In this document: piece after piece, positions 366 to 12,628 of the stretch | Layout of the letters: every line of letters starts with the position of its first letter | Position numbering within the stretch: the stretch's first letter is position 1 | Source: Candidatus Eiseniibacteriota bacterium | GTDB taxonomy: Bacteria; Eisenbacteria; RBG-16-71-46 | Length of the DNA: 22,106 nucleotides | Assembly (NCBI GenBank): GCA_044222065.1 | Contig: JBGAOA010000070.1 | Coordinates: forward strand, 1-22,106 | Reading direction: 5' to 3' | Notes under the pieces: generated by a model | Databases searched by the model: none | Told to the model about the DNA's origin: nothing | The model's input: the letters and a program-made list of their open reading frames with translations, nothing else | Program-made: the position numbers and the translations under genes

Positions 366-527
366 AGGCTCCTCTTGAATACCCGATTGTGGGACCCGCA
401 TTCGGCGAGTGCCCGGCTCGGTCATTCGTCACTGCGGAGCATCCCGCGGATACACCTCCGGGGTACCCACGCGAAGCGTGGGTCGCACTCCCTCGCCGCC
501 TTGCACTCAGGTGTTCAAACGGAGCCT
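366..527. repeat. ~162-bp intergenic element with imperfect terminal inverted repeats (MITE/ERIC-like element or structured RNA)
   Basis: Left arm 366-386 AGGCTCCTCTTGAATACCCGA matches the reverse complement of 507-527 (AGGCTCCGTTTGAACACCTGA) at 17/21. Internal hairpins include ACCCACGC-GAA-GCGTGGGT (465-483). It lies between the convergent comB and lptG stops and is less GC-rich than the flanking genes. Confidence 0.6.
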
Positions 528-1605
528 AGCGCCGCTGCGCGTCCGCGAGCATGAACGCCCCGATCGTTCCGAACAGCACGTCGCCGAACCACGCCGCGAC
601 GTAGGGGGGCAGCGCGCCGTTGTGCCCGAGCGCCTGGCCGGTGCGCATGATCGCGACGAACAGGAACGCGATCGCGACCGACAGTCCGAAGCCGACCGCC
701 GCGCTCTGAAGGCGGAGCCGCGTCGCGATCGAGGCGCCGAACAGGATCACGACGATGTTCACGAGCGGCATCGACAGCTTGAGGTGCAGGTCCACGAGGT
801 AGTTCGCGACCCGCGCGCCGCTCGCGCGCAGCCGCACGATGTACTCGCGCAGCGAGAAGTAGTCCATCTCGTTCGGCTGGACGCTCTCCTTGGCGAAGTC
901 GGCGGGCACCTCGGCCAGCTCCGGCATCGGAAGGCGGTCGAACGGGCGCGCGCGCTCGACGCCGCGCTGGAACGAGCGCTCGTAGCCCGACACGAACACC
1001 CACTGGCGGCCGTCCCAGTGCGCTTCGGCCGCGTCCACGCGGCGCGCGAGTTCGCCGCGCCGGAACTCCTGAAGCGACACCTCGTGCATGCGCTGCTGGC
1101 GCACGAGGTAGAGGCGCACGACGTAGATGCGGCCGCCCTCGCCGAGGTACGTGACGTCGGCGCGCTCGGTCGCCTCGTCGCGGCGCAGCTGCTGGATGCG
1201 CTGCTCGTAGATGTGGTCGCGCTCGCGATTCGCGGCCGGCACGACCCATTCGCCGAGCAGCAGCGAGACGGCGACGCATGCGAACGAGATCACGAACACG
1301 GGCCGCAGGATACGGACGAGCGACACGCCCGACGCCCGCATCGCAGTCAGCTCGCCGAACTTGTTGAGCTGGCCGAGGCCGAGGAACGTCGCGAGCAGCA
1401 GCGCGACGGGCAGCACCTGCACGATCACCTCGGGCGCGCGGAACAGGTAGAAGCGCGCGATCAGGTCCCACGGCGCGTGGTGGTCGAGGAACACGTCGAT
1501 CTTCTCGAACACGTCCACGACGATGAACAGCACGACGAAGCCGCCGAGTCCGAGCGCGAGGTAGCCCGAGAACTCCCGCAGCACGTGGCGGTCGAGGATC
1601 CTCAC
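526..1605 (-). CDS. lptG: LPS export ABC transporter permease LptG (359 aa)
   Basis: GTG start (VRILDRHVLREF) overlaps the lptF stop by 4 nt. Three TM segments, LptF/G motif GELTAMRASGVS, periplasmic domain, QPNEMDYFSL, HLKLSMP, then three C-terminal TMs ending in LPPYVAAW. Confidence 0.88.
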   Translation of the reverse strand: MRILDRHVLREFSGYLALGLGGFVVLFIVVDVFEKIDVFLDHHAPWDLIARFYLFRAPEVIVQVLPVALLLATFLGLGQLNKFGELTAMRASGVSLVRILRPVFVISFACVAVSLLLGEWVVPAANRERDHIYEQRIQQLRRDEATERADVTYLGEGGRIYVVRLYLVRQQRMHEVSLQEFRRGELARRVDAAEAHWDGRQWVFVSGYERSFQRGVERARPFDRLPMPELAEVPADFAKESVQPNEMDYFSLREYIVRLRASGARVANYLVDLHLKLSMPLVNIVVILFGASIATRLRLQSAAVGFGLSVAIAFLFVAIMRTGQALGHNGALPPYVAAWFGDVLFGTIGAFMLADAQRR

Positions 1606-2990
1606 GCGACCGCTCCGCGCCGGTCGCCCGGACGGGGCGCGCGCGGCGGGCGCTGCGGCAGCAGGTCGCACGCCCGCAGCGTCTGCGCGACGCCCCACGC
1701 ACCGAGCACGAGGTTCGCGAGCCACATCGAGAGCCACGGCGGCAGCAGCAGCCGGTTCGCGAGTTCCTCGCCGCCGACGAGGCACAGGTAGTAGAAGAGG
1801 AAGAACCCGATCGAGACGAACGCCACGGCGGGGCCCGCGCGTCGCACGCGCATGCCGAGCGGCGCGCCGATCAGCACGAACACGAGGCAGGCGGCCGGGA
1901 GCGAGAACTTCTTGTGGATCTCGACGGACAGGCCGGCGACGCGCCGCTCGAGCGACTGGCGCTCGAGCGTCCACAACTCGGTCTCGGTCTGGAGCCACGG
2001 CATCTTGCGCGTCGCGTGCTCGAGCACGTCCTCGCCGTTCACGACTTCGTTCCAGAGCGCGCGGATCCGGTCGACGGGGCCGCGCGGGGGCGCGAGCATC
2101 GCCGCGTCGGCCGGCGTCGGCGCGCCCGCGACGCGCAGGCGGTCGATCGCGCGCTGCCGCGCCGCGCGGTACTGGCGCTCCACGCTGTCGCGCACCGCGA
2201 TCCGGTCGCGCGCGCTCATCTCGCGATCGGAGCGCACGTCGCGCACGGTGCGCTCGAGCAGGTTGCCGGCGCCGGCGAGGTACAGGTCGTGCGTGCGGAA
2301 CACCATGCGACGGTAGAGGCGCGAGCCGCCTTCCGTCGCCGGGATCTCGTGGATCTCGCCGTCCTTGAGCCGGAACACCGCCGTGCGTCCGTCGCGCGTG
2401 TACTCGAGCGTGCCGCGCTTGGCGAGGATCGTCGTCGGGGGCCCGCCGGGATTGAGCTTGTAGATCGTGACGCCGCGCATCTCGTTCGTGCGCCCGTTCA
2501 CCGACTGGACGAGCAGGTTGTAGCCCGGGAAGTCGGTGATGAACTCGCCCTCGTGCAGCTTCACGGTCGGCCGCATGCGCCCGATGTCCACGAGCAGGTT
2601 CGCGAACGCGTGGTTCGTCTCGGGCAGGACGTGGTTGTTGAACAGCGTGAGGCCGACGGTGAGCGCCGCGGCCGCGACGAGCGGCCCCACGAGCACGGTC
2701 GCGAGGTTGACGCCGCTCGCGCGCAACGCGGTGATCTCGTTGTCCTGCGAGAGCCGGCCGAACGTCATGAGCACCGCGACGAGCACGGCGCACGGGGCCG
2801 AGAGCGCGACGATGTAGCCGAGGGACAGGACGAACAGTTGCGCCACGACTCCGACCGGAACTCCGCGGTTCACGACCAGGTCGAGGTAGTCGAACAGCAC
2901 GTCCATCTCGAGGATGAACGTGATGACGCCGAAGCCCAGCAGGAACGGAACCAGGTGGAGCTTGAGGATGTACGAACGGAGGAGTCCCAC
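1602..2990 (-). CDS. lptF: LPS export ABC transporter permease LptF (462 aa, extended periplasmic region)
   Basis: LLRSYILK N-terminus, FGRLSQDNEITALRASGV, VEIHKKFSLPAACLVFVLIGAPLG and SMWLAN are YjgP/YjgQ (LptF/G) hallmarks. It is the first gene of a tandem pair. Confidence 0.88.
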   Translation of the reverse strand: MGLLRSYILKLHLVPFLLGFGVITFILEMDVLFDYLDLVVNRGVPVGVVAQLFVLSLGYIVALSAPCAVLVAVLMTFGRLSQDNEITALRASGVNLATVLVGPLVAAAALTVGLTLFNNHVLPETNHAFANLLVDIGRMRPTVKLHEGEFITDFPGYNLLVQSVNGRTNEMRGVTIYKLNPGGPPTTILAKRGTLEYTRDGRTAVFRLKDGEIHEIPATEGGSRLYRRMVFRTHDLYLAGAGNLLERTVRDVRSDREMSARDRIAVRDSVERQYRAARQRAIDRLRVAGAPTPADAAMLAPPRGPVDRIRALWNEVVNGEDVLEHATRKMPWLQTETELWTLERQSLERRVAGLSVEIHKKFSLPAACLVFVLIGAPLGMRVRRAGPAVAFVSIGFFLFYYLCLVGGEELANRLLLPPWLSMWLANLVLGAWGVAQTLRACDLLPQRPPRAPRPGDRRGAVA

Positions 2991-3075: not shown

Positions 3076-3123
3076 CCGCCGCGGCGCCGCCAGCCCTGGC
3101 GGCGCGAGCCATTTGAGGCCCGG

Positions 3124-6100
3124 ATGTCGCCACTGCTGACCCTTCCTTTGCTGGCCATCAGCCTCGCTTTCCCCTGGTTCGGAAAGCTCCCGGCATGGAA
3201 GTCGAAGCCCCGCGCGACCACGGTGGCGGCGGACACGCTGCCTCCGGTCTGGCGGCCCGCCTCCCGCCTCGCGCTCCAGAGCGAACTCGTGCGCCCGACC
3301 CTGCCCGCGCTGCGGCGCTTCTACGTCGGGCTGCAACTGCGCGAGGACCCGCGGCGGCTGCGCGTGAGCTTCGACGCCGACTCCGCGACGCTCAGCACCG
3401 GCGTCGAAATGGGCTCGATCCCGCTCGGCGGCGCCTCGCGCCTGCCGCTCGGGGAGTTCGCGCGCGACCTGCCGGCGACATCGTTCGAGAAGCAGTGGCT
3501 CCAGAGCAACCGCGAGCGGCTCAATTCGCTCGGCCAGTACAGCTCCGCGAACGTGCCGCAGAGCGGCATGGGCCTCTCGGTGCACTTCCCGTCGCCGCTG
3601 CCCCAGCGATTCCGCAGCATCCTCGGACCCGGGAGCCCGGCGCTGACGCTGCGCGGCACCGAGAGCATCCGGCTCTCGGGGCAGAGCAACTGGACGAACC
3701 AGCAGATCGGCCCGCTCGGCCGAAAGCAGTCGCTGTTCCCGTCGCTCGACATGCAGCAGGACCTCGACATTCAGCTCGAGGGCCAGCTCTCGGACCGCAT
3801 CAAGGTCAACCTGCTCCAGAACACCGGCATCCAGGTGCCGCTCGCGAACCGCATCGCGATCAACTACAAGGGCGACGAGGACGACCTCGTCCAGGCGCTC
3901 GACCTCGGGAACACGAACCTCACGCTGCCGGGCACGCAGTACGTGTCGTACAGCGGCAAGAACGAGGGTCTGTTCGGCGCGAAGGCGACGACGCGCATCG
4001 GCCCGCTCGACTTCACGATGCTCGCGAGCAAGCAGGAGGGACGCAGCGAGCGCGCGGCGTACGCGGGCGGCGCCTCGTCCCAGAAGCAGTCCATCTCGGA
4101 CCACGACTGGATCCACGGCCGCTTCTTCTTCCTGTACGAGCCGAACGGGCCCTCGCTGTACATCCCGCCCGACAGCGTGCAGGTCTACCTCGACGACGCG
4201 AACGCGTACAACGACGTCGCGACCGGCGCGCGGACGGGGCGCGCGTACGTGGATCCGTCCACGACGCCCGTGGACACGCTCAACACGATTTCGGTGCGGG
4301 GCTCGTTCGCCGTGCTCAACTACGGCGCCGACCTCGACTACGAGATCAACCGCACGCTGTACGGCCCCTTGTTCCCGGTGCTGCACCTCGCGCGCGACGT
4401 CACGTACAACCAGGCGATCGCGGTGAGCTACTACGCGTACCCCGTGCTCGGCGTGGACGGGCAGGGCCGCCCGATCCTCGGCGATCGCTTCCGCGTCGGC
4501 GGCACGATCGGAACCGAGAGTCCGACGGACACGACGTCGATCCTGCAGCTCAAGCTCGTCCGGCCCCCGGCGAACAAGCTCAAGCAGTCGGGAATCGGCT
4601 TCGACACGACCGACGTGTTCGTGCAGGCGCGCGAGCTCGAGCTTAAGAACGTCTACCAGCTGCCGGGACAGCGGATCGATCCGCAGACGTTCAAGCTCTC
4701 GATCCGCAAGGGGCGCGACGATCCGCCGGTCACGACGTTCCGGACGGCGGCGACCGGCGACACGGCGCTCACGTTCCTCGAGGCCGTCGGCCTCGACAAC
4801 TTCGACGAGACGACGGGGCAGAGCCTCGAGGGCCACGACGGCCGCGTGGACGGCACGCTGCCGAGCCAGCAGAACCGCTACTTCGTGGACTTCGAGAACG
4901 GGCTGCTGATGTTCTACGACCTGCGCCCCTTCGCGCCGCGTCTCTACAAGCCGTTCGAGTCCTCGGTCGCGAACGTGCTGTTCCGCCGCGCGCGCCTCGA
5001 CGGCCCGGTGGACTCGCCGAACGAGGCGAACCCCGCGCCGTACGACGTCTACACACCGCTGCGCGACGTCAACACGAAGTACCTGATCGACGTGGAGCTG
5101 AGCGCGCAGCGCGCGACCGGCGAGATCAATCTCGGGCGCACGAACATCCTCGAGGGGTCCGAGAAGGTCACCGTCAGCGGCGTCGAGTGGGTGCGCAACC
5201 GCGACTACGAGATCGACTACGACCTCGGGCGCCTCACGCTCAAGAAGCAGCTCGGCGCGACGGAGAACCTGAGCGTGGACTACTCCTACGCGCCGCTGTT
5301 CGCGCAGGCCGGGCGCACGCTCGTCGGCAGCGCGTTCAAGCTCGAGGGCCGCGACAAGCTGTTCGGCGGCGCGTTCATGTACGAGAGCAAGGGCGCGCAG
5401 GACCTGCGGCCGCGACTCGGCGAAGAGCCGTCGCGCAGCGTGATCGGCGACCTCAACACCGACTGGACGTTCCGCCCCGACTGGGTGACGCGACTCGTGG
5501 ACGCGCTGCCCGGACTGCGCACGACGGCGCAGTCCGAGTTCCGCTTCCAGGGCGAGGTCGGCGCGTCGTTCCCGAATCCGAACACGCGCAACGAAGTGTA
5601 CGTGGACGACATGGAGGGCGTGCGCGACGCCGTGTCCGTGTCGCTCGACCGCGGCCGCTGGCGCTACGCGGCGCCGCCGCGCGTTCGCTCGGGCGGCATC
5701 GAGCGGCGCATCGACGAGGTCTCAGGCCGCAAGCTCGCTGAGCTTCACTGGTATTCGCCGGCCTCCACCGTTCTCGAGAGCGACCTCAAGCCGAAGCTCA
5801 CGGAGGCGCAGGGCTCCAAGAACCGCCGGCTCGTGCTCGCGATGTCGGTGCCGCGCCGCCCGCTCACCGCACTCCCGACCGACACGCTGTGGACGGGCCT
5901 GACGTACGTGCTCGACCAGCAGGGCTTCGACCTCTCTCGCTCGCAGTTCATCGAGCTGTGGGTCAGCGACTGGGCCGACTACCACTCGGGCGTCTCGCAG
6001 CCGCGTGTGCGCGGGCGGAACGTGCGGCTCAATATCGACCTCGGCGTCGTGAGCGAGGACCAGCAGCGCGTGCCGAATCGCCCCGCGAACAACAAGCTCG

Positions 6101-9100
6101 ACACCGAGGATCAGGGCAATCCCCCGGACGGCCAGCTGACGATCGCGGAAGGCAACAACGAGGACACGGGCTTCGACGGCGTGGATCCCGACACCGCGGT
6201 GTTCAACGGCGCGAATCCGCTCGATCCCCGCAACCTGGACCTCGTCACCGCGAACGGCGACGACCCGGCCGGCGACCGCTTCGAGACGATCCAGGATTCG
6301 CCGAACAAGGAGGACATCGACCCGCGGCGCTACGTGCGCGTGAACGGCACCGAGGAGAACCACAACCTCGATCCGCTGCCCGACACCGAGGACATGAACC
6401 TGAACGGCACGCTCGATCGCGACGAGGACTTCTTCCGCTACACGATCGACCTCGGCGATCCGAACCAGCGCTACCTGATCACCGACGTGCAGCGCGACTT
6501 CCCGGACGCCGTTCCGCCGCCGGCGGCCGACAACGGCTGGCGTCGCTACCGCATCCCGCTCACGGACTCGCTGCGGACCGCGTTCGGAAATCCGAACCTG
6601 TCGCTCACGCGGCACGTGCGCGTGTGGCTCGACGGCCTCTACGACGGCGACGGCGCTCCGGACTCGCGCGGCGTCGTGAAGCCGCTCGTCATGCTCGGCG
6701 GGCTCGAGATCGTGGGCAGCCGCTGGCAGTCGGTCGCGCTCACCGACTCGCAGAAGACCGCCGGCACGACGCAGACGCTGAACTCGGTCAACAGCGTGGA
6801 CAACGCGGAGCGCTACGTCGCGCCGTTCGATCCCGGCCGCACGCGCAGCGGCAGCCAGGAACTGGCGCGGCGCGAGCAGTCCGTGGCGCTCGAGTTCACG
6901 CGCTTCCAGCCGGGCGACACGCTCGAGGCGTACAAGACGTTCTCGATCGACGAGAACTACAGCCGCTACGGGACGCTCAACTGGTACGCCGCGGCGTTCG
7001 ACGTGGACGGCTACATCGCCGGCGCCGACACGCTCTACTACTTCGTGCGCTTCGCCTCCGACGAGCAGGGGCGGAACTACTACGAGTACAAGTCGCTGCT
7101 GCCGCCGTCCTCGCAGGCGCTCGCGATCGCGTGGCGTGAGGTGCGGCTCGCGCTCACGGAACTCTCGAACGTGAAACTGCGTTCCGACTTCCCGACGACC
7201 GGCGACATCCTCTACCGCGTCGCGGCCGAAACCCCCGGCGATTCGATCGTGATTCGCGGACGCCCGTCGTTCACGCGGCTGCGGCGCGTGTCGTTCGGGC
7301 TCCTCAATCCGTTGAACTCGCGCGTCTACGACCGTGGCGAGCTGTGGTTCGACGAACTGCGCGCGACCGACGTCGCGAAGGACCGCGGCACCGCGCAGCG
7401 CATCACGACGAGCGGCCGGTTCGCGAACCTCGCGAACTACAACATCAGCTGGGACGCGCGCGACGCCGACTTCATCACGGTCGGCCAGAGCCGCGGGTCG
7501 GGCACGAGCAACGACCAGTTCAACTTCACGGGCGGGCTCGATCCGTCCCGCTTCGTCGAAGGCACCGGCATCGCCCTGCCGCTCAACTTCACGTACTCGC
7601 GCAACACGCAGAAGCCGCGGTTCACGGCGGGCGACGACGTCGTGCGCACGGGCGCGCTCGCGGACGCGAGCGTGACGCGCACCGAGACGCGCGGCTTCAG
7701 CACGAACTACGCGCGCACGTGGGGGCCGAGGTCGAATCCGTTCCTCAAGTACACGGTCGGCGGCGTGACCGCGAACTTCAGCCGCAACGAATCCGAGAGC
7801 GTCTCGCCGTCGGGCGCCTCGAACAGCCGTACGACGAACCTGAACGTCGCGTACGCGATCGCGCCGCGCGAACTCGTCGCGATCGGCCTGCCGCTCACGA
7901 AGGCGCGCCTGCGGCCGCTGCCGGAGCGGTTGTTCTGGAACTACTCCTCGACCCGTTCCGACGCGAAGAACTACACGCGCTCGGACGACGGCAGCGCGCT
8001 GTTCCTCACGAGCGCGCCGAGCGGGCGCACCGGCACGCTCGCGTTCGGCGCGGACACGCGCCCGCTCGACTTCTTCCACCATCACGTGGACGCGCTTCGC
8101 AACCTGGAACTCGACGAGCCGCTGCGCGAGAAGGTCGCCGGCGTGAACCTCGGCCGCGTCGTGAACTGGCGGCAGAACATGGACGCGGCGTTCGGACTCA
8201 ACAAGGGCGACTGGCTGACGCCGCGCTTCAGCTGGAACTCGAGCTACGCGCAGGACAACCGCCCCGAACTGTCGCCGCGGCGTGACCTCAGCGTGCGGGC
8301 CGTCTCGAACACGCAGAGCATGAGCGTGAGCTGGTCGCTGCCCTTCGATCGGCTCGCGGCGCCGCCGAAGACCGCGCCGGGCGGCCAGCGCTTCAGTCCC
8401 GGCGGCCGGCCGATCGGCGGTCCGGTCCCGTCCCCGGGTGCGACCGGTTCGCCGCCGCGAGCGGGGACGCTCGCCGGTGCGGGCGTCAATCCGGCCGCGC
8501 CCGGCGGCGCGCCGGCCGTGACGCCCGGGGGGCCGCCGCCCGGCGGAACCGGAGCCGATCCGTCGCAGCCGGCGGGGGGCCCCGAGCCCTCCGAGAGCGA
8601 GGACGTGCCGCGCGAACTTCCGGGGCTCACCCCGCCGCAGGCCGCGCCGGCGCCGCCGATCGCGGCGGCGGACTCGGCCGCGGCCGACACGACGCGGCGG
8701 GCCGTGAAGCCGGCGCGTCCGCCCATCACGATCGACTGGCGCTCGATCGTCTCGCGGCTCGGCCGCGTGAGCTGGGACGCGTCGTGGGACCGTAACTCCA
8801 ACTTCTCGCGCCTCACGGGCACGCCGAGCCTCGGCTACCTGTTCGGCCTGTCCGACGATCCGGGCCTCGCCTCCGATTCGACCGGCCGCGTGCGCGAGGA
8901 GTTCGGGAACGTCGCGTCGTTCGGCACGAACTGGCGGACGTCGGCGCGCACGCGCGTCACGCTGCCGTGGGACGCGTCGGTGAACACGAACGCCGAATGG
9001 ACGTCGCGGCGCTCCGAGAGCAACCGCGTCCTCACGAAGAACGCCTCGTCGCGCTTCCCGAACTTCGAGATCACGTACGGACGGCTGCCGCAGGCGCTGC

Positions 9101-9675
9101 GGCTGCAGCGCTTCTTCACGAACCCGCAGATGCGCACGTCGTACTCGCGCTCGATCACGAAGGACTACCGCAACGGCCAGAGCACGCCGACGGGCATCGC
9201 GACGAGCAGCCAGTGGCAGCCGCTGCTGAGCCTCGACGGCGACCTCAAGAACCAGACGCGCGTCTCGTTCAAGGTCGAACGCCGCGTGACGCAGCGCGAC
9301 AACCTTCAGCTCAACGCGTCGCGCACGACCGACCGCAACACCGACGTGAACCTGAACCTGTCGCGGTCGTACTCGCGCGGGCAGAAGGTGAAGTTCCTGA
9401 ACAAGGAGACGACCGTGAAGACGGCGGTCTCGCTGTCGCTCGCGGCCGTCTACTCGCGCCAGAGCGGCGAGACGGTCGCGCTCGAGGGCAAGGACAAGAA
9501 GCCGAGCAATCCACAGTTGCGCGACCGCTTGTCCGTCAACGGCCGCGGGTCGTATTCCTTCAGCAACAACGTCACGGGCAACGTGTCGCTCGGCTTCGGC
9601 CAGACGCGCAACGTGCTGCAGAAGTCGGTCAACCGGAACGTGCGCGTCGAGGTGAGCGCCTCGTTCACGTTCTGA
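3124..9675 (+). CDS. sprA: SprA/Sov-like giant outer-membrane beta-barrel protein (type IX secretion translocon family), 2183 aa
   Basis: SprA-family motifs in the expected order: YKGDEDDLVQALDLGNTNLTLP, GLFGAK, GSEKVTVSG...DYEIDYDLG, GEEP, YVDDMEG, LHWY, IDLGVVSED, PDTEDMN.NGTLD, WRRYRIPL, WFDELR. Hydrophobic N-terminus, amphipathic beta-strands, C-terminal Phe beta-signal (EVSASFTF). Confidence 0.88.
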   Translation: MSPLLTLPLLAISLAFPWFGKLPAWKSKPRATTVAADTLPPVWRPASRLALQSELVRPTLPALRRFYVGLQLREDPRRLRVSFDADSATLSTGVEMGSIPLGGASRLPLGEFARDLPATSFEKQWLQSNRERLNSLGQYSSANVPQSGMGLSVHFPSPLPQRFRSILGPGSPALTLRGTESIRLSGQSNWTNQQIGPLGRKQSLFPSLDMQQDLDIQLEGQLSDRIKVNLLQNTGIQVPLANRIAINYKGDEDDLVQALDLGNTNLTLPGTQYVSYSGKNEGLFGAKATTRIGPLDFTMLASKQEGRSERAAYAGGASSQKQSISDHDWIHGRFFFLYEPNGPSLYIPPDSVQVYLDDANAYNDVATGARTGRAYVDPSTTPVDTLNTISVRGSFAVLNYGADLDYEINRTLYGPLFPVLHLARDVTYNQAIAVSYYAYPVLGVDGQGRPILGDRFRVGGTIGTESPTDTTSILQLKLVRPPANKLKQSGIGFDTTDVFVQARELELKNVYQLPGQRIDPQTFKLSIRKGRDDPPVTTFRTAATGDTALTFLEAVGLDNFDETTGQSLEGHDGRVDGTLPSQQNRYFVDFENGLLMFYDLRPFAPRLYKPFESSVANVLFRRARLDGPVDSPNEANPAPYDVYTPLRDVNTKYLIDVELSAQRATGEINLGRTNILEGSEKVTVSGVEWVRNRDYEIDYDLGRLTLKKQLGATENLSVDYSYAPLFAQAGRTLVGSAFKLEGRDKLFGGAFMYESKGAQDLRPRLGEEPSRSVIGDLNTDWTFRPDWVTRLVDALPGLRTTAQSEFRFQGEVGASFPNPNTRNEVYVDDMEGVRDAVSVSLDRGRWRYAAPPRVRSGGIERRIDEVSGRKLAELHWYSPASTVLESDLKPKLTEAQGSKNRRLVLAMSVPRRPLTALPTDTLWTGLTYVLDQQGFDLSRSQFIELWVSDWADYHSGVSQPRVRGRNVRLNIDLGVVSEDQQRVPNRPANNKLDTEDQGNPPDGQLTIAEGNNEDTGFDGVDPDTAVFNGANPLDPRNLDLVTANGDDPAGDRFETIQDSPNKEDIDPRRYVRVNGTEENHNLDPLPDTEDMNLNGTLDRDEDFFRYTIDLGDPNQRYLITDVQRDFPDAVPPPAADNGWRRYRIPLTDSLRTAFGNPNLSLTRHVRVWLDGLYDGDGAPDSRGVVKPLVMLGGLEIVGSRWQSVALTDSQKTAGTTQTLNSVNSVDNAERYVAPFDPGRTRSGSQELARREQSVALEFTRFQPGDTLEAYKTFSIDENYSRYGTLNWYAAAFDVDGYIAGADTLYYFVRFASDEQGRNYYEYKSLLPPSSQALAIAWREVRLALTELSNVKLRSDFPTTGDILYRVAAETPGDSIVIRGRPSFTRLRRVSFGLLNPLNSRVYDRGELWFDELRATDVAKDRGTAQRITTSGRFANLANYNISWDARDADFITVGQSRGSGTSNDQFNFTGGLDPSRFVEGTGIALPLNFTYSRNTQKPRFTAGDDVVRTGALADASVTRTETRGFSTNYARTWGPRSNPFLKYTVGGVTANFSRNESESVSPSGASNSRTTNLNVAYAIAPRELVAIGLPLTKARLRPLPERLFWNYSSTRSDAKNYTRSDDGSALFLTSAPSGRTGTLAFGADTRPLDFFHHHVDALRNLELDEPLREKVAGVNLGRVVNWRQNMDAAFGLNKGDWLTPRFSWNSSYAQDNRPELSPRRDLSVRAVSNTQSMSVSWSLPFDRLAAPPKTAPGGQRFSPGGRPIGGPVPSPGATGSPPRAGTLAGAGVNPAAPGGAPAVTPGGPPPGGTGADPSQPAGGPEPSESEDVPRELPGLTPPQAAPAPPIAAADSAAADTTRRAVKPARPPITIDWRSIVSRLGRVSWDASWDRNSNFSRLTGTPSLGYLFGLSDDPGLASDSTGRVREEFGNVASFGTNWRTSARTRVTLPWDASVNTNAEWTSRRSESNRVLTKNASSRFPNFEITYGRLPQALRLQRFFTNPQMRTSYSRSITKDYRNGQSTPTGIATSSQWQPLLSLDGDLKNQTRVSFKVERRVTQRDNLQLNASRTTDRNTDVNLNLSRSYSRGQKVKFLNKETTVKTAVSLSLAAVYSRQSGETVALEGKDKKPSNPQLRDRLSVNGRGSYSFSNNVTGNVSLGFGQTRNVLQKSVNRNVRVEVSASFTF

Positions 9676-9688
9676 TCGGGGAGGAACG

Positions 9689-10609
9689 GTGCGGACGAAG
9701 AACCTCTGGCTGCTGGTCGCGGTGGCGCTCGCGGGGCTCGCCTCGTGCTCGGCGGGGCTTCCGGCCCCGGACGGCGCGCGCGCGCACGCGCGCGTCGTGA
9801 AGCAGGTCGGGTTCGGTCCGCGTACGCCGGGCTCGCCGGGCCACGCGGCCTGCCGCGAGTGGATCGAGTCCGAACTGAAGCGTCTCGGGGCGACGGTGGA
9901 GATCCAGCGCGGCGAGGACTCGCTGCGCGGCGAGCCGCTGCCGATCGTGAACGTGATCGGCCGCTTCGGCCCCGAGTCCGGGCCGCCGCTCCTGCTGTGC
10001 GCGCACTACGACACGCGGCCCTGGTGCGACCGCGACCCCGATCCCGCGCTCCGGCAGCAGCCGCTCGCGGGCGCGAACGACGCCGGCTCGGGGGTCGCCG
10101 TGCTGCTCGAGGTCGCCGAGGCGTTCGCGAAGCGCCCGCCGCGCGTGCCCGTGCACCTCGTCTTCTTCGACGCCGAGGACCAGGGCCGCTCGGACCTCCC
10201 GCAGGAGTTCAGCCGCGGCTCGGCCTACTTCGCCTCGAAGCTGCCCGCCCGTGGCGCCCCCGGGCGGCCACGCGCCGGCATCGTGTTCGACATGATCGGC
10301 GACAAGGACCTGCGCATCCCGGTCGAGCAGAATTCGGCCGCCCGCGCGGGCAACCTCGTCGCGATCGTCCGGGCCGCGGCGCGCGCGACGGGCGCCCGGC
10401 ACTTCGTGGACGAGGCCGGCTTCAACGTCGCCGACGACCACCTGCCGCTGCTGGACGCCGGCGTCCCGGCCGTGGACCTGATCGACATCGAATACGACGC
10501 CTGGCACACGACCCGGGACCTGCCCGACCAGGTGAGCCCAGAGAGCCTCGCCGAGGTCTCCCGGGTCGCGATCTGGCTCGCGCTCGCGAGCGATCTCGCC
10601 CGTCCCTGA
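9689..10609 (+). CDS. M28-family zinc lipoprotein, probable glutaminyl cyclase (glutaminyl-peptide cyclotransferase), 306 aa
   Basis: GTG start with GGGGAGGA SD, 13 nt after the sprA stop. Lipobox LASC (Cys20). Motifs GPRTPGS.GH, LLCAHYDTRP, GANDAGSG, FFDAEDQG, FDMIGD, DDHLP, WHT..D. M28 family is clear; cyclase versus aminopeptidase is inferred. Confidence 0.75.
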   Translation: MRTKNLWLLVAVALAGLASCSAGLPAPDGARAHARVVKQVGFGPRTPGSPGHAACREWIESELKRLGATVEIQRGEDSLRGEPLPIVNVIGRFGPESGPPLLLCAHYDTRPWCDRDPDPALRQQPLAGANDAGSGVAVLLEVAEAFAKRPPRVPVHLVFFDAEDQGRSDLPQEFSRGSAYFASKLPARGAPGRPRAGIVFDMIGDKDLRIPVEQNSAARAGNLVAIVRAAARATGARHFVDEAGFNVADDHLPLLDAGVPAVDLIDIEYDAWHTTRDLPDQVSPESLAEVSRVAIWLALASDLARP

Positions 10610-10657: not shown

Positions 10658-10687
10658 TTGCCCGGGGCGTCGCGGCTGGAGTAGTGT
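10658..10687 (+). promoter_or_regulatory. Putative sigma70 promoter of the rimP operon
   Basis: TTGCCC (10658-10663), 18-bp spacer, TAGTGT (10682-10687), just upstream of the leader hairpin. Same -35 hexamer as upstream of rpsO. Confidence 0.45.
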
Positions 10688-10697
10688 GCGGCTCCGA

Positions 10698-10728
10698 GGA
10701 GTGGGGAAGGCGCGACCACTCCATTTTT
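10698..10728 (+). promoter_or_regulatory. rimP leader (terminator-like attenuator hairpin)
   Basis: GGAGTGG (10698-10704) pairs with CCACTCC (10716-10722), followed by ATTTTT. Matches the GAGTGGG...CCACTC-U-tract motif widely conserved upstream of rimP-nusA operons. Confidence 0.65.
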
Positions 10729-10748
10729 CATCCCTGCCTGGAGTGCAA

Positions 10749-11234
10749 TTGGAAGTCCGAGAAGAGGTTCGCCAGTTGGCGCAGCCGCTTGCGGACGAGG
10801 CCGGCTTCGAGCTCGTGGACGTCGAGTTCACGTCCGCGGGGCGTCATCGGATCGTCCGCGTGCTGCTCGACCGACCCGGCGGCATCACGGTCGGCGAGTG
10901 TCAGGCGTTCAGCCGGCGGCTCTCGGATTGTCTGGACATGAATCAGATGCTCAGCGGCGCGTACTTCCTCGAGGTCAGCTCGCCCGGGGTGGATCGTCCG
11001 CTGCGCACGTTGGATTCGATCTCGAGGTTTGCCGGCAAGCCGGCGGTCGTCACGCTGCACGACGCGAAGGACGGCCGGCGGAAGTTCGACGGCGTGCTGC
11101 TGGGCCCCGACGGGACGCGCGTCGGGGTGCGGGGCGAGGAAGGCGAGTTCTGGTTCGAGTGGGTCGAGGTTCGCTCGGCCCGACTGAACGAGGATCCGTG
11201 GAGCGTGGTCCGTTCCCGGGGAGAGAACCGATGA
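10749..11234 (+). CDS. rimP: Ribosome maturation factor RimP (161 aa)
   Basis: TTG start after GGAG (10740-10743). GFELVDVE, GGITVGEC..FSR, YFLEVSSPGVDRPL. Directly upstream of nusA. Confidence 0.93.
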   Translation: MEVREEVRQLAQPLADEAGFELVDVEFTSAGRHRIVRVLLDRPGGITVGECQAFSRRLSDCLDMNQMLSGAYFLEVSSPGVDRPLRTLDSISRFAGKPAVVTLHDAKDGRRKFDGVLLGPDGTRVGVRGEEGEFWFEWVEVRSARLNEDPWSVVRSRGENR

Positions 11235-12624
11235 ACAGCGAAATCCTGGATGCGTTGAGTCAGATCACCCGCGAGAAGAGCGTCGATCGGGCATTGCTCA
11301 TCGAAACGCTCGAGCAGGGCCTGGCCAGCGCCGTGCGGCGCAAGTACGGCGCGACCGCCGACGTCGAGGTCAAGTTCGCTGTGGACTCGGGCTCGATCAC
11401 CATGGCCCTCCGCCGCACCGTCGTGGAGACCGTCGAGGATCCGGCGCTGCAGATGACCGTCGAGGAGGCGCGCGCGCACCGTCGCGACGCGAAGGTCGGC
11501 GACGTGCTCACGTTCCCGCTCTCGATCGCGGAGTTCGGACGCAACGCGATCCAGACGGCGAAGCAGGTGCTGATCCAGCGCGTGCGCGAGGCGGAGCGCG
11601 AGCGCGTGTTCCAGGAGTACTCCGACAAGATCGGCGTGCTCGTGCGCGGCGTCGTCCAGCAGGTGGACCGCGGAAACGTCATCGTGAAGCTCGACCATTC
11701 CGAGGGCTTCCTGCCGGCGCGCGAGCAGATCGCGCGTTCGTACCACCGACAGGGCGACTACGTGCGCGCGGTCGTCATCAACGTGGACAAGTCGGTCAAG
11801 GGGCCGCAGGTGATCCTGTCGCGCACGCATCCCGACTTCCTGCGGCGGCTGTTCGAGACCGAAGTGCCCGAGATCGCCGACAGCATCGTCGAGATCAAGG
11901 CGGTCGCCCGCGAGGCGGGCGCGCGCTCGAAGATCTCGGTGTTCTCGACCGACCCGCGCGTGGACGCGGTCGGGTCGTGCGTAGGCCTCAAGGGCTCGCG
12001 CGTTCAGAGCATCGTGCGCGAACTCGGCGGCGAGCGCATCGACATCGTGCCGTGGTCGAGCGACCCGTCGGTGTTCGTGTCGCGCGCGCTGTCGCCGGCG
12101 CGGGTGATGGACGTGAAGGTGAACGAGCCCGAACGCCGCATGATGGTGATCGTGGCCGACGACCAGCTGTCGCTCGCGATCGGCAAGGGCGGCCAGAACG
12201 CCCGCCTCGCGGCGCGGCTCACGGGCTGGAAGATCGACCTCGTTTCGAAGACCGAGCAGAAGAAGCGCGAGGAGCTCGACAAGGCGTCGCGCATCGAGGT
12301 CGAGAAGCTCGGCCTCGGCGAGTCGACGACCGAGAAGCTGATCTCGGGCGGCATCGAGACGGTGCAGGAACTCATCGTCACGCCGTTCGAGAAGCTCGTG
12401 GAGATTCCCGGCATCGGCGAGAAGACCGCCGAGAAGATCATGGGCGTCGCCCGCGAGTACCTCGAAGCTCACCCGCCCGCCGCGCCGGCCCCGGCCGCGG
12501 CGGCGGAACTGGAATTCGCGCCCGAGATGGAAGCGGCGCCGGTGGACGGCGCGGAGGCGGCCGAGGCCGCACCCGCAGACGAATCGGCGAACGCGGCCGA
12601 AGGCGTGTCGGAGGACAAGGCTCA

Positions 12625-12628
<4 letters not shown>
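11231..12628 (+). CDS. nusA: Transcription termination/antitermination factor NusA (465 aa)
   Basis: ATG overlaps the rimP stop (ATGA). FGRNAIQTAKQV, S1 domain, ILSRTHP, EVPEI, AREAGARSKI, VGSCVG.KGSRV, LSLAIGKGGQNARLAARLTGWKID, C-terminal HhH (IPGIGEKTAEKI). Confidence 0.97.

What the first reader, a model, noticed from the sequence alone, without database searches (positions are those of the whole stretch)
3124..9675. Full-length SprA-type (T9SS translocon) barrel in a genome that does not look like Bacteroidota
Seen: a 2183-aa ORF with an ordered series of SprA-family motifs and a terminal Phe beta-signal. Established: SprA/Sov is the 36-stranded translocon of the type IX secretion system, characterised in Bacteroidota. 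Seen: the context (very high GC, GGAG/GAGG SD sites, TTGxxx-17-TAnnnT promoters, DUF503 in the infB operon) is unlike typical Bacteroidota, and no porK/L/M/N, porV, porU or gld gene lies in these 22 kb. Inference: this is a divergent or minimal T9SS-related export channel in an FCB-related lineage with unknown motor and cargo. SprA homologues are annotated in some such lineages, but I know of no functional characterisation.
Basis: partly seen in the sequence, partly recalled or inferred. Interest (0 to 1): 0.75.

Follow-up and report, generated by a model that had tools for sequence, protein, structure and literature searches.

The report
Type IX secretion pore without known motor
This gene encodes a genuine SprA, the giant outer-membrane pore of type IX secretion, in an uncultured Eisenbacteria bacterium that has the pore's carrier, its sortase and well over a hundred tagged cargo proteins, but no detectable copy of the motor and ring thought to power the system.

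Summary
The 2183-aa ORF (3124-9675, +) is real and is an SprA/Sov orthologue. It scores 530 bits against TIGR04189 (cut-off 200). Models of its two halves match only SprA chains strongly and line up with F. johnsoniae SprA residues 137-2401.

The genome is Candidatus Eisenbacteria. SprA was found in 120 of 121 sampled genomes of the phylum and always sits in lptG-lptF <> sprA-glutaminyl cyclase-rimP-nusA.

Elsewhere the same genome has PorU, PorV and 133-206 proteins with a T9SS C-terminal tail. So cargo and attachment parts are not missing.

No GldK, L, M or N passed its family cut-off. This holds for this genome, a closed relative, the 121 sampled genomes, and (GldL only) 18 genomes of a second phylum. 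Bacteroidales controls scored strongly for GldL and GldM.

This is a reduced T9SS whose energy source is unknown, but a cryptic, very divergent motor is not excluded.

NCBI already names relatives SprA. The scan noted a motor-less SprA in Elusimicrobiota (e1-5259224) and the SprA-cyclase pair (e1-1380876) on other DNA.

The parts
3124..9675 (+). sprA: 2183-aa SprA/Sov-type T9SS outer-membrane translocon
   Evidence: TIGR04189 530.2 bits (cut-off 200), PF14349 85.6 bits. Fold matches to SprA chains only.
3115..3118 (+). GAGG Shine-Dalgarno-like site, 5 nt before the ATG
   Evidence: Read directly from the sequence.
3124..3210 (+). N-terminal hydrophobic segment, a presumed Sec signal peptide, conserved in homologues
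   Evidence: No signal-peptide predictor was run.
8365..8679 (+). Pro/Gly/Ala-rich low-complexity insert of about 105 aa (residues about 1748-1852), private to this genome
   Evidence: In the 13 aligned homologues, 96% of the cells at these positions are gaps. pLDDT is about 30-34 in the model. The GC peak of 0.748 falls at 8001-9000.
9643..9672 (+). C-terminal beta-signal-like strand ending in Phe
   Evidence: All 13 homologues read to an intact C-terminus also end in F.
9689..10609 (+). M28-family type II glutaminyl-cyclase homologue, 13 nt after sprA
   Evidence: PF04389 109.9 bits. PDB 3tc8 2.3e-49, 6qql 2.3e-45. Present in 16 of 17 loci that reach beyond sprA.
1602..2990 (-). lptF-like LPS export permease, divergent from sprA
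   Evidence: PF03739 260.7 bits. Conserved upstream in 20 of the 20 loci that extend upstream of sprA.
526..1599 (-). lptG-like LPS export permease
   Evidence: TIGR04408 226.9 bits, just under its cut-off of 240. Synteny.
10686..12628 (+). rimP and nusA, the start of the nusA-infB operon downstream
   Evidence: Synteny in 17 of 17 loci that reach that far.

Best explanation
The ORF encodes the SprA/Sov orthologue of an uncultured Candidatus Eisenbacteria bacterium. SprA is the giant single-chain outer-membrane barrel through which type IX secretion cargo leaves the periplasm. Inferred mechanism, by analogy with F. johnsoniae: Sec exports proteins that carry a type A C-terminal domain (CTD). 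A PorV-type carrier docked at the SprA lateral opening binds the CTD. The carrier-cargo pair then leaves the pore, and the PorU sortase removes the CTD and fixes the cargo to the surface. Shown here: SprA, PorV, PorU and 133-206 CTD proteins are all encoded in this genome. SprA and PorU are nearly universal in the phylum sample. What differs from the described system: GldL/M (PorL/M, the proton motor) and GldK/N (PorK/N, the ring or hub) are undetectable, and PorP/SprF is mostly absent. The step that needs motor energy in Flavobacterium, pulling PorV-cargo out of SprA, must therefore be driven by something unrecognised or not need a dedicated motor. My split is about 45% an unrecognised non-homologous or extremely divergent coupling module, about 30% no dedicated motor, and about 25% a cryptic true GldLM.
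For: Identity: TIGR04189 530 bits against a cut-off of 200. phmmer to 6h3i_A gives 1.4e-28. With Foldseek, the four SprA chains score 8e-37 to 6e-28 for the C half and 2e-40 to 4e-25 for the N half; the next hits are 2e-6 and 3e-3. With VIA-align, Z is 24.0 (675 aligned, rmsd 5.6) and 19.5 (819 aligned, rmsd 10.8), covering SprA residues 137-2401 collinearly. Conservation: SprA in 120 of 121 sampled phylum genomes, 113 over cut-off. 511 homologues at E<=1e-10, the top 120 at 48-59% identity. Fixed synteny. Partners: PorU 468 bits (cut-off 420) and PorV_fam 176 bits (cut-off 90) on C77. PorU in 61 of 61 genomes, 52 over cut-off. Cargo: 133 TIGR04183 matches, of which I count 123 over cut-off, with only 150 of 186 candidates scored. 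206 ORFs have a CTD at the very C-terminus by jackhmmer. Many cargo ORFs show N-terminal signal-peptide-like segments. Missing parts: GldL, M and N have 0 hits in G000. GldL and GldM have 0 hits in 3 further Eisenbacteria genomes, one with a closed chromosome, while 2 Bacteroidales controls score 140-387 bits. GldL_N and GldM_1st have 0 hits in 4 Eisenbacteria genomes at E<=0.1. In the phylum sample of 121, none is over cut-off for TIGR03513, PF22827, PF12081, PF19841 or TIGR03525. An unfiltered phmmer over all 24,503 six-frame ORFs gives nothing better than E 0.64. A second phylum of 18 genomes has SprA in 18 of 18 and GldL_N in 0 of 18. The requirement for motor energy comes from passages of PMC10994853.
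Against: Absence is inferred from sequence models trained mostly on Bacteroidota. SprA here is only 13-21% identical to F. johnsoniae SprA in structural alignment, so small membrane proteins such as GldL could have drifted beyond detection. G000 is 94% complete in 131 contigs. No whole-genome fold-based search for GldLM-like proteins was possible. SprE/PorW, SkpA, PorD, PPI and Plug were not tested. The barrel was modelled only in two halves (pLDDT 73 and 69), so neither a closed 36-strand barrel nor the lateral opening was verified. Expression evidence is weak: only short, low-depth contigs in RNA libraries. No experiment exists for any Eisenbacteria.
Confidence: 0.8

Rival explanations
1. 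The system is a canonical T9SS. GldLM, and perhaps GldKN, are present but so divergent that the TIGRFAM and Pfam models and phmmer miss them, so the mechanism is the same as in Bacteroidota.
For: SprA itself is only 13-21% identical to the solved SprA. GldL_N is a 62-position model. An earlier, unchecked AI note (e1-3631018) describes a GldLM-like pair in Kapabacteria that fails the family tests.
Against: Bacteroidota-derived models still detect SprA, PorU, PorV and the CTD above their cut-offs in the same genomes. All four of K, L, M and N fail in 121 genomes, and GldL_N also fails in 18 genomes of a second phylum, even at E 0.01. With filters off, nothing appears in G000.
Confidence: 0.22
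2. The pore is energised by a general proton-driven motor of the cell (Ton or Tol) in place of GldLM.
For: G000 has only three MotA/ExbB-family stators. They are Tol, a Ton cluster with two ExbD and two TonB genes, and MotAB. Earlier unchecked AI notes describe Ton-type motors in operons with PorV-like carriers in other phyla (e1-7215277, e1-7192370, e1-5219049, e1-7408762).
Against: In G000 the Ton cluster lies in an ordinary PBP-like/TPR-ExbB-ExbD-ExbD-TonB-TonB context beside TolC/HlyD-type genes. No PorV-like barrel or CTD cargo is next to it. No TonB box or plug domain was examined in SprA or PorV. MotAB goes with a flagellum: FliG is present in G000 but in only 8 of 31 family genomes. 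It therefore cannot be the general motor.
Confidence: 0.15
3. The full-length SprA is not the working secretion pore here. The working pore would be the 1347-aa 'half-size SprA-like' barrel in the porU-porV operon, and SprA would serve another envelope role, for example one linked to LPS export given its lptFG neighbours.
For: The 1347-aa protein lies three genes downstream of porU-porV on C77. Earlier unchecked AI notes propose it as a pore (e1-1360220, e1-3334670, e1-944934). sprA is fixed next to lptFG in two phyla.
Against: The half-size protein scores only 29 bits on TIGR04189 and shares one 59-aa motif with SprA. The full-length SprA is intact, nearly universal and collinear with the solved translocon over its whole length.
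Confidence: 0.05

Closest known systems
SprA (Flavobacterium johnsoniae; PDB 6H3I, 6H3J, 8GL6, 8GL8) / Sov (Porphyromonas gingivalis), family TIGR04189
   Same: It passes the equivalog model. The fold is collinear from SprA residue 137 to 2401. It has a similar size, an N-terminal export segment and a terminal Phe. It is encoded together with PorV, PorU and type A CTD cargo.
   Different: Identity is 13-21% in structural alignment. The protein is 2183 aa against 2403 aa and has a private 105-aa disordered insert. The lineage is outside Bacteroidota. No GldKLMN was detected. The lptFG/glutaminyl-cyclase/rimP-nusA neighbourhood is fixed here but was not seen in 4 Bacteroidales loci.
Canonical Bacteroidota T9SS (PorKLMN/GldKLMN core, Sov/SprA, PorV, PorU, PorW/SprE)
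   Same: The translocon, the carrier, the sortase and the CTD signal are present.
   Different: The motor (L, M) and ring (K, N) were not detected. PorP/SprF is over cut-off in only 9 of 121 genomes and in none of the 45 genomes of the window's own family, G000 included. Abby et al. 2016, whose model requires the full set, found T9SS only in Bacteroidetes (PMC4793230, passages).
Proposed T9SS of other FCB phyla (Fibrobacter succinogenes CTD cargo, PMC6851124; list of phyla in PMC11285876)
   Same: These are non-Bacteroidota lineages with TIGR04183-type tails. T9SS is considered possible in several FCB phyla (passages).
   Different: Eisenbacteria is not in that list. The passages I read do not say which machine parts are present or absent in those phyla.

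Membership tests
SprA/Sov (TIGR04189, PF14349) | Scores above the curated equivalog cut-off | tested here: met
   530.2 bits against 200. PF14349 85.6 bits against 27.
SprA/Sov (TIGR04189, PF14349) | Giant single-chain outer-membrane barrel with inserted cap domains, superposable on solved SprA | tested here: met
   Two half models were made. Only SprA chains match strongly: Foldseek E 1.7e-40 to 5.6e-28, VIA-align Z 16-24. Together they cover SprA residues 137-2401.
SprA/Sov (TIGR04189, PF14349) | Closed 36-strand barrel with a lateral opening | not testable with these tools
   The protein exceeds the 1200-residue folding limit. The halves cannot close into a barrel, and strands were not counted on a closed barrel.
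SprA/Sov (TIGR04189, PF14349) | Exported outer-membrane protein: N-terminal signal and C-terminal aromatic beta-signal | tested here: met
   The hydrophobic N-terminus is conserved in homologues. The protein and all 13 homologues read to an intact C-terminus end in Phe. No signal-peptide predictor was run.
Type IX secretion system | PorV carrier and PorU sortase encoded in the genome | tested here: met
   NF033707 468 bits against 420. NF033709 176 bits against 90. PorU in 61 of 61 phylum genomes.
Type IX secretion system | Cargo with type A C-terminal domain (TIGR04183) | tested here: met
   133 matches at E<=1e-3. 206 ORFs with a terminal CTD by jackhmmer.
Type IX secretion system | GldL/PorL-GldM/PorM proton motor | tested here: not met
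   0 hits in G000, in the relative with a closed chromosome (G001) and in the single-contig relatives G037 and G059. 0 of 121 over cut-off. Controls were positive.
Type IX secretion system | GldK/PorK-GldN/PorN ring | tested here: not met
   GldN 0 of 121. GldK 0 of 121 over cut-off, with only generic FGE-sulfatase hits.
Type IX secretion system | Extended-translocon partners SprE/PorW, SkpA, PorD, PPI and Plug | not tested
   I had no model accession for them. One TPR protein near porUV gave only generic TPR matches.
Type IX secretion system | CTD-dependent secretion demonstrated | not testable with these tools
   The lineage is uncultured and no experiment exists.

The most novel reading that the evidence does not exclude
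SprA, PorV and PorU form a self-sufficient, ancestral type IX export pathway that works without any dedicated rotary motor. It is the main secretion route of whole non-Bacteroidota phyla, with about 130-200 cargo proteins per genome here. GldKLMN would then be a later Bacteroidota addition that coupled the pore to gliding. If so, release of the carrier from the pore is driven by something else, such as cargo folding, sortase and LPS attachment, or a general Ton/Tol motor.
Probability: 0.3. Interest if true: 0.85.

Novelty: new variant of a known kind. Interest (0 to 1): 0.6.

Why it matters
Current models hold that the GldLM/PorLM motor is essential for type IX secretion, because energy is needed to pull the PorV-cargo complex out of SprA (PMC10994853, passages). 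Here is a whole phylum, and at least one neighbouring phylum, that keeps SprA. The Eisenbacteria also keep PorU and, in this genome, PorV and a very large CTD secretome. None of them shows a detectable motor or ring. That gives a natural test of which parts are the minimal secretion core. It also bears on how the system arose and whether another energy source can replace GldLM. Finally, it matters for annotating secretion in abundant uncultured sludge, soil and groundwater bacteria, because tools that demand the full Bacteroidota gene set report no T9SS there.

Tried and rejected
1. Orphan MotAB as an alternative motor. G000 has a MotA-MotB pair on C103. FliG is also present in G000, yet in only 8 of 31 family genomes. 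MotAB is therefore flagellar and not general.

2. Ton cluster as a T9SS-linked motor. The only ExbB-ExbD-ExbD-TonB-TonB cluster (C106) has PBP-like, TPR, TolC-like and HlyD-like neighbours. No PorV-like barrel or CTD cargo is next to it. There is no specific link, so this stays a speculation.

3. GldK candidate on C75. It is a 742-aa FGE-sulfatase protein next to a fumarase gene, and only the generic domain matches.

4. TPR protein on C77 as SprE/PorW. It gave only designed or generic TPR matches in the PDB.

5. 'Q-rule' test, prompted by the glutaminyl cyclase gene. With a crude cleavage-site heuristic, 24 of 158 cargo ORFs had small-x-small-Q. No enrichment is evident, but the heuristic is weak.

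6. Promoter consensus upstream of sprA: 0 sites.

7. RNA evidence. Three metatranscriptome runs (two studies) hold short, low-depth pieces identical to sprA. As contigs they cannot show transcription, strand or ends. Parts without cover mean nothing.

8. Literature. No paper holds both 'Eisenbacteria' and 'type IX secretion'. No paper holds at least five of the six terms T9SS, PorV, metagenome-assembled genomes, candidate phyla, lack and GldL. Searches for T9SS outside Bacteroidetes gave only general statements.

9. Naming other phyla to compare was not possible. Only the phylum of L034/G134 could be reached.
Full report
**Observation**

The window is 68-76% GC. Long open frames therefore occur by chance on several frames. 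The frame 3124-9675 (+) stands out because its GC by codon position is 0.64/0.49/0.95, the pattern of the window's other real genes. It starts at the first possible start codon, preceded by GAGG at 3115-3118. It encodes 2183 residues ending in ...SASFTF. The NCBIfam equivalog model for the T9SS translocon, TIGR04189, scores 530.2 bits against a cut-off of 200, in four stretches. The three stretches that the genome search lists are collinear. Pfam SprA_N scores 85.6 bits. phmmer against the PDB finds only F. johnsoniae SprA (6h3i_A, 1.4e-28).

**Fold**

The protein exceeds the 1200-residue folding limit, so I folded residues 1-1200 and 984-2183. Each used a 50-row alignment of homologues. Mean pLDDT was 69.2 for the N half and 73.1 for the C half.

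| Model | Foldseek, the four SprA chains | Next best hit | VIA-align best | Range aligned on SprA |
|---|---|---|---|---|
| N half (1-1200) | 1.7e-40 to 4.3e-25 | 2.7e-3 | Z 24.0, 675 aligned, rmsd 5.6 Å | 137/264 to 1263 |
| C half (984-2183) | 8.1e-37 to 5.6e-28 | 2e-6 | Z 19.5, 819 aligned, rmsd 10.8 Å | 1167/1215 to 2401 |

The Foldseek results are, and the VIA-align results. The high rmsd of the C half is expected, because half a barrel cannot close. The homology is therefore end to end. I could not check the strand count, the cap or the lateral opening on a closed barrel.

Residues about 1748-1852 form a Pro/Gly/Ala-rich insert. In the 13 aligned homologues, 96% of the cells at these positions are gaps, and the insert is modelled as disordered.

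**Who carries it**

All full-length homologues at 48-59% identity come from records named Candidatus Eisenbacteria, or from unnamed or evidently mislabelled MAGs with the same gene order. NCBI already names several of them 'cell surface protein SprA'. In a sample of 121 genomes of the phylum, 120 have a match and 113 pass the cut-off.

The neighbourhood is fixed:
- lptG-lptF lies divergently upstream in all 20 loci that extend upstream of sprA.
- An M28 gene follows sprA in 16 of the 17 loci that extend beyond it.
- rimP-nusA comes next in 17 of 17.
- The exception for the M28 gene is L034, whose SprA is 29% identical. It belongs to another GTDB phylum of 18 genomes but keeps lptFG and rimP-nusA.
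- Four Bacteroidales loci show none of these neighbours.

**The rest of the system**

Contig C77 of the same genome carries these genes in order:
- a subtilase with a CTD;
- an M23 peptidase and dnaE;
- PorU (468 bits, cut-off 420; C25 peptidase domain plus CTD);
- PorV (PorV_fam 176 bits, cut-off 90);
- an M6-like cargo protein;
- a 561-aa protein with no family match;
- a 1347-aa protein that scores only 29 bits on the SprA model.

That last protein shares just one 59-aa motif with SprA. The full-length protein in the window is therefore the true orthologue.

PorU is present in 61 of 61 sampled genomes, 52 of them over cut-off. The curated type A CTD model finds 133 matches in G000; I count 123 over cut-off, and only 150 of 186 candidates were scored. 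A jackhmmer search started from two CTDs finds 206 ORFs with the domain within 8 residues of the stop codon, plus 6 with the domain further from the end. Many of these ORFs begin with signal-peptide-like segments. Several further PorV/PorQ-like barrels lie directly after CTD proteins. This organism appears to be a heavy user of the pathway.

**What is missing**

| Component (model) | G000 | Other Eisenbacteria genomes | Phylum sample of 121 | Bacteroidales controls |
|---|---|---|---|---|
| GldL (TIGR03513) | 0 hits | 0 in 3, one with a closed chromosome | 0 over cut-off; 7 weak hits to the low-complexity tail of the model | 140-189 bits |
| GldL_N (PF22827) | 0 at E<=0.1 | 0 in 3 | 0 | 96.7 bits |
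| GldM (TIGR03517) | 0 hits | 0 in 3 | not run | 365-387 bits |
| GldM_1st (PF12081) | 0 at E<=0.1 | 0 in 3 | 0 over cut-off; one hit at E 0.008 | 150.8 bits |
| GldN (TIGR03523, PF19841) | 0 hits | not run | 0 | 149 bits, hmmscan of the G004 protein |
| GldK (TIGR03525) | only a generic FGE-sulfatase domain | not run | 0 over cut-off; 28 genomes with hits of at most 111 bits to the domain half | not run |
| PorP/SprF (PF11751) | 0 | not run | 9 over cut-off, none in the window's own family | 199 bits, hmmscan of the G004 protein |

With all filters off, phmmer with the Bacteroidales GldK/L/M/N/PorP against all 24,503 six-frame ORFs of G000 gave the following:
- nothing for GldM or GldN at E<10;
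- E 0.64 at best for GldL;
- E 6.3 at best for PorP;
- only the FGE-sulfatase ORF for GldK.

The second phylum shows the same picture: SprA in 18 of 18 genomes and GldL_N in 0 of 18.

**Alternative motors**

G000 has only three MotA/ExbB-family stators:
- a Tol cluster;
- one Ton cluster (ExbB-ExbD-ExbD-TonB-TonB) in an ordinary context;
- a MotAB pair.

FliG is present in G000 but in only 8 of 31 family genomes, so MotAB serves a patchy flagellum. None of the three lies next to T9SS genes.

**Interpretation**

[quoted passage not shown] The authors deduce that energy is needed to extract the PorV-substrate complex (PMC10994853, passages).

In Eisenbacteria, the Bacteroidota-derived models still detect the translocon, the carrier, the sortase and the cargo signal, while the motor and ring are not detected at any threshold. 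The best reading is a reduced type IX system whose energy coupling is unknown. I cannot exclude a cryptic GldLM. SprA itself is only 13-21% identical to the solved protein, and GldL is a small membrane protein.

Evidence of expression is weak. Short, low-depth contigs identical to parts of sprA occur in three metatranscriptome runs from two studies.

**Known or new**

What I read in the papers:
- Several abstracts and search listings call the T9SS specific to Bacteroidetes or to the FCB superphylum.
- Abby et al. found complete systems only in Bacteroidetes (PMC4793230, passages).
- CTD tails were proposed for Fibrobacter enzymes (PMC6851124, passages).
- BLAST hints of T9SS in Chlorobi, Fibrobacteres and Ignavibacteriae are mentioned in PMC5837995 (passages).

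No paper in the library holds both 'Eisenbacteria' and 'type IX secretion'. None of my searches turned up a description of a T9SS that lacks PorKLMN. I did not open supplementary files.

Within this scan, earlier unchecked AI notes report the following on other DNA:
- a motor-less SprA in Elusimicrobiota;
- the SprA-glutaminyl cyclase pair in several phyla;
- the half-size barrel next to porUV;
- Ton-type motors next to PorV-like carriers.

The gene is an already annotated member of a known family. The system-level picture is a new variant of a known kind.

Noticed in passing
window 9689-10609 (+): The gene 13 nt after sprA is a close homologue of the type II glutaminyl cyclases of Bacteroidota (PDB 3tc8 2.3e-49, 6qql 2.3e-45, 6qro 4.5e-44). 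It follows sprA in 16 of 17 loci. An earlier scan note (e1-1380876) reports the same pair in other phyla. A crude test found no clear excess of Gln after cleavage sites in cargo (24 of 158).
   Followed up: partly
window 8365-8679 (+): A 105-aa Pro/Gly/Ala-rich insert lies inside SprA. It is absent from nearly all aligned homologues, is modelled as disordered and coincides with the local GC maximum. Whether it faces the periplasm or the outside was not determined.
   Followed up: partly
window 526-2990 (-) and loci L015-L035: lptF-lptG lie divergently upstream of sprA in every locus that reaches that far, including the 29%-identical SprA of a second phylum. This hints at shared regulation of LPS export and the pore whose cargo is anchored to LPS in Bacteroidota.
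   Followed up: no
G000 contigs C55, C80, C84, C12 (for example L058:5645-9599): Several PorV/PorQ-like barrels lie immediately after large CTD proteins. On C55 the set is TonB-dependent-receptor-like protein, CTD protein, PorV-like barrel, GWxTD-domain protein.
   Followed up: partly
G000:C38:54336-58856 (-) and G000:C112:2953-4206 (+): There are further PorU-related proteins. A 1507-aa ORF scores 153.9 bits on the N-terminal half of the PorU model and has a CTD-like domain near its end. A weaker hit lies on C112.
   Followed up: no
G000:C103 (L060:1733-5261) and G000:C100:20143-20460: A MotA-MotB pair is flanked by HDOD and HD-domain genes, and FliG is present. FliG was found in only 8 of 31 genomes of the family, so flagella seem patchy in this lineage.
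   Followed up: partly
loci L026, L027, L035: The sprA reading frame is interrupted or shifted in three MAG records, among them the closed chromosome behind L035. This looks like assembly indel error rather than gene decay, but I did not check.
   Followed up: no
loci L019 and L032: Records labelled Verrucomicrobiia and Saccharimonadaceae carry the Eisenbacteria-type sprA-cyclase-rimP-nusA block, with SprA 48-52% and NusA 84-85% identical to the window's. They are probably mislabelled or mis-binned.
   Followed up: no
   Followed up: no
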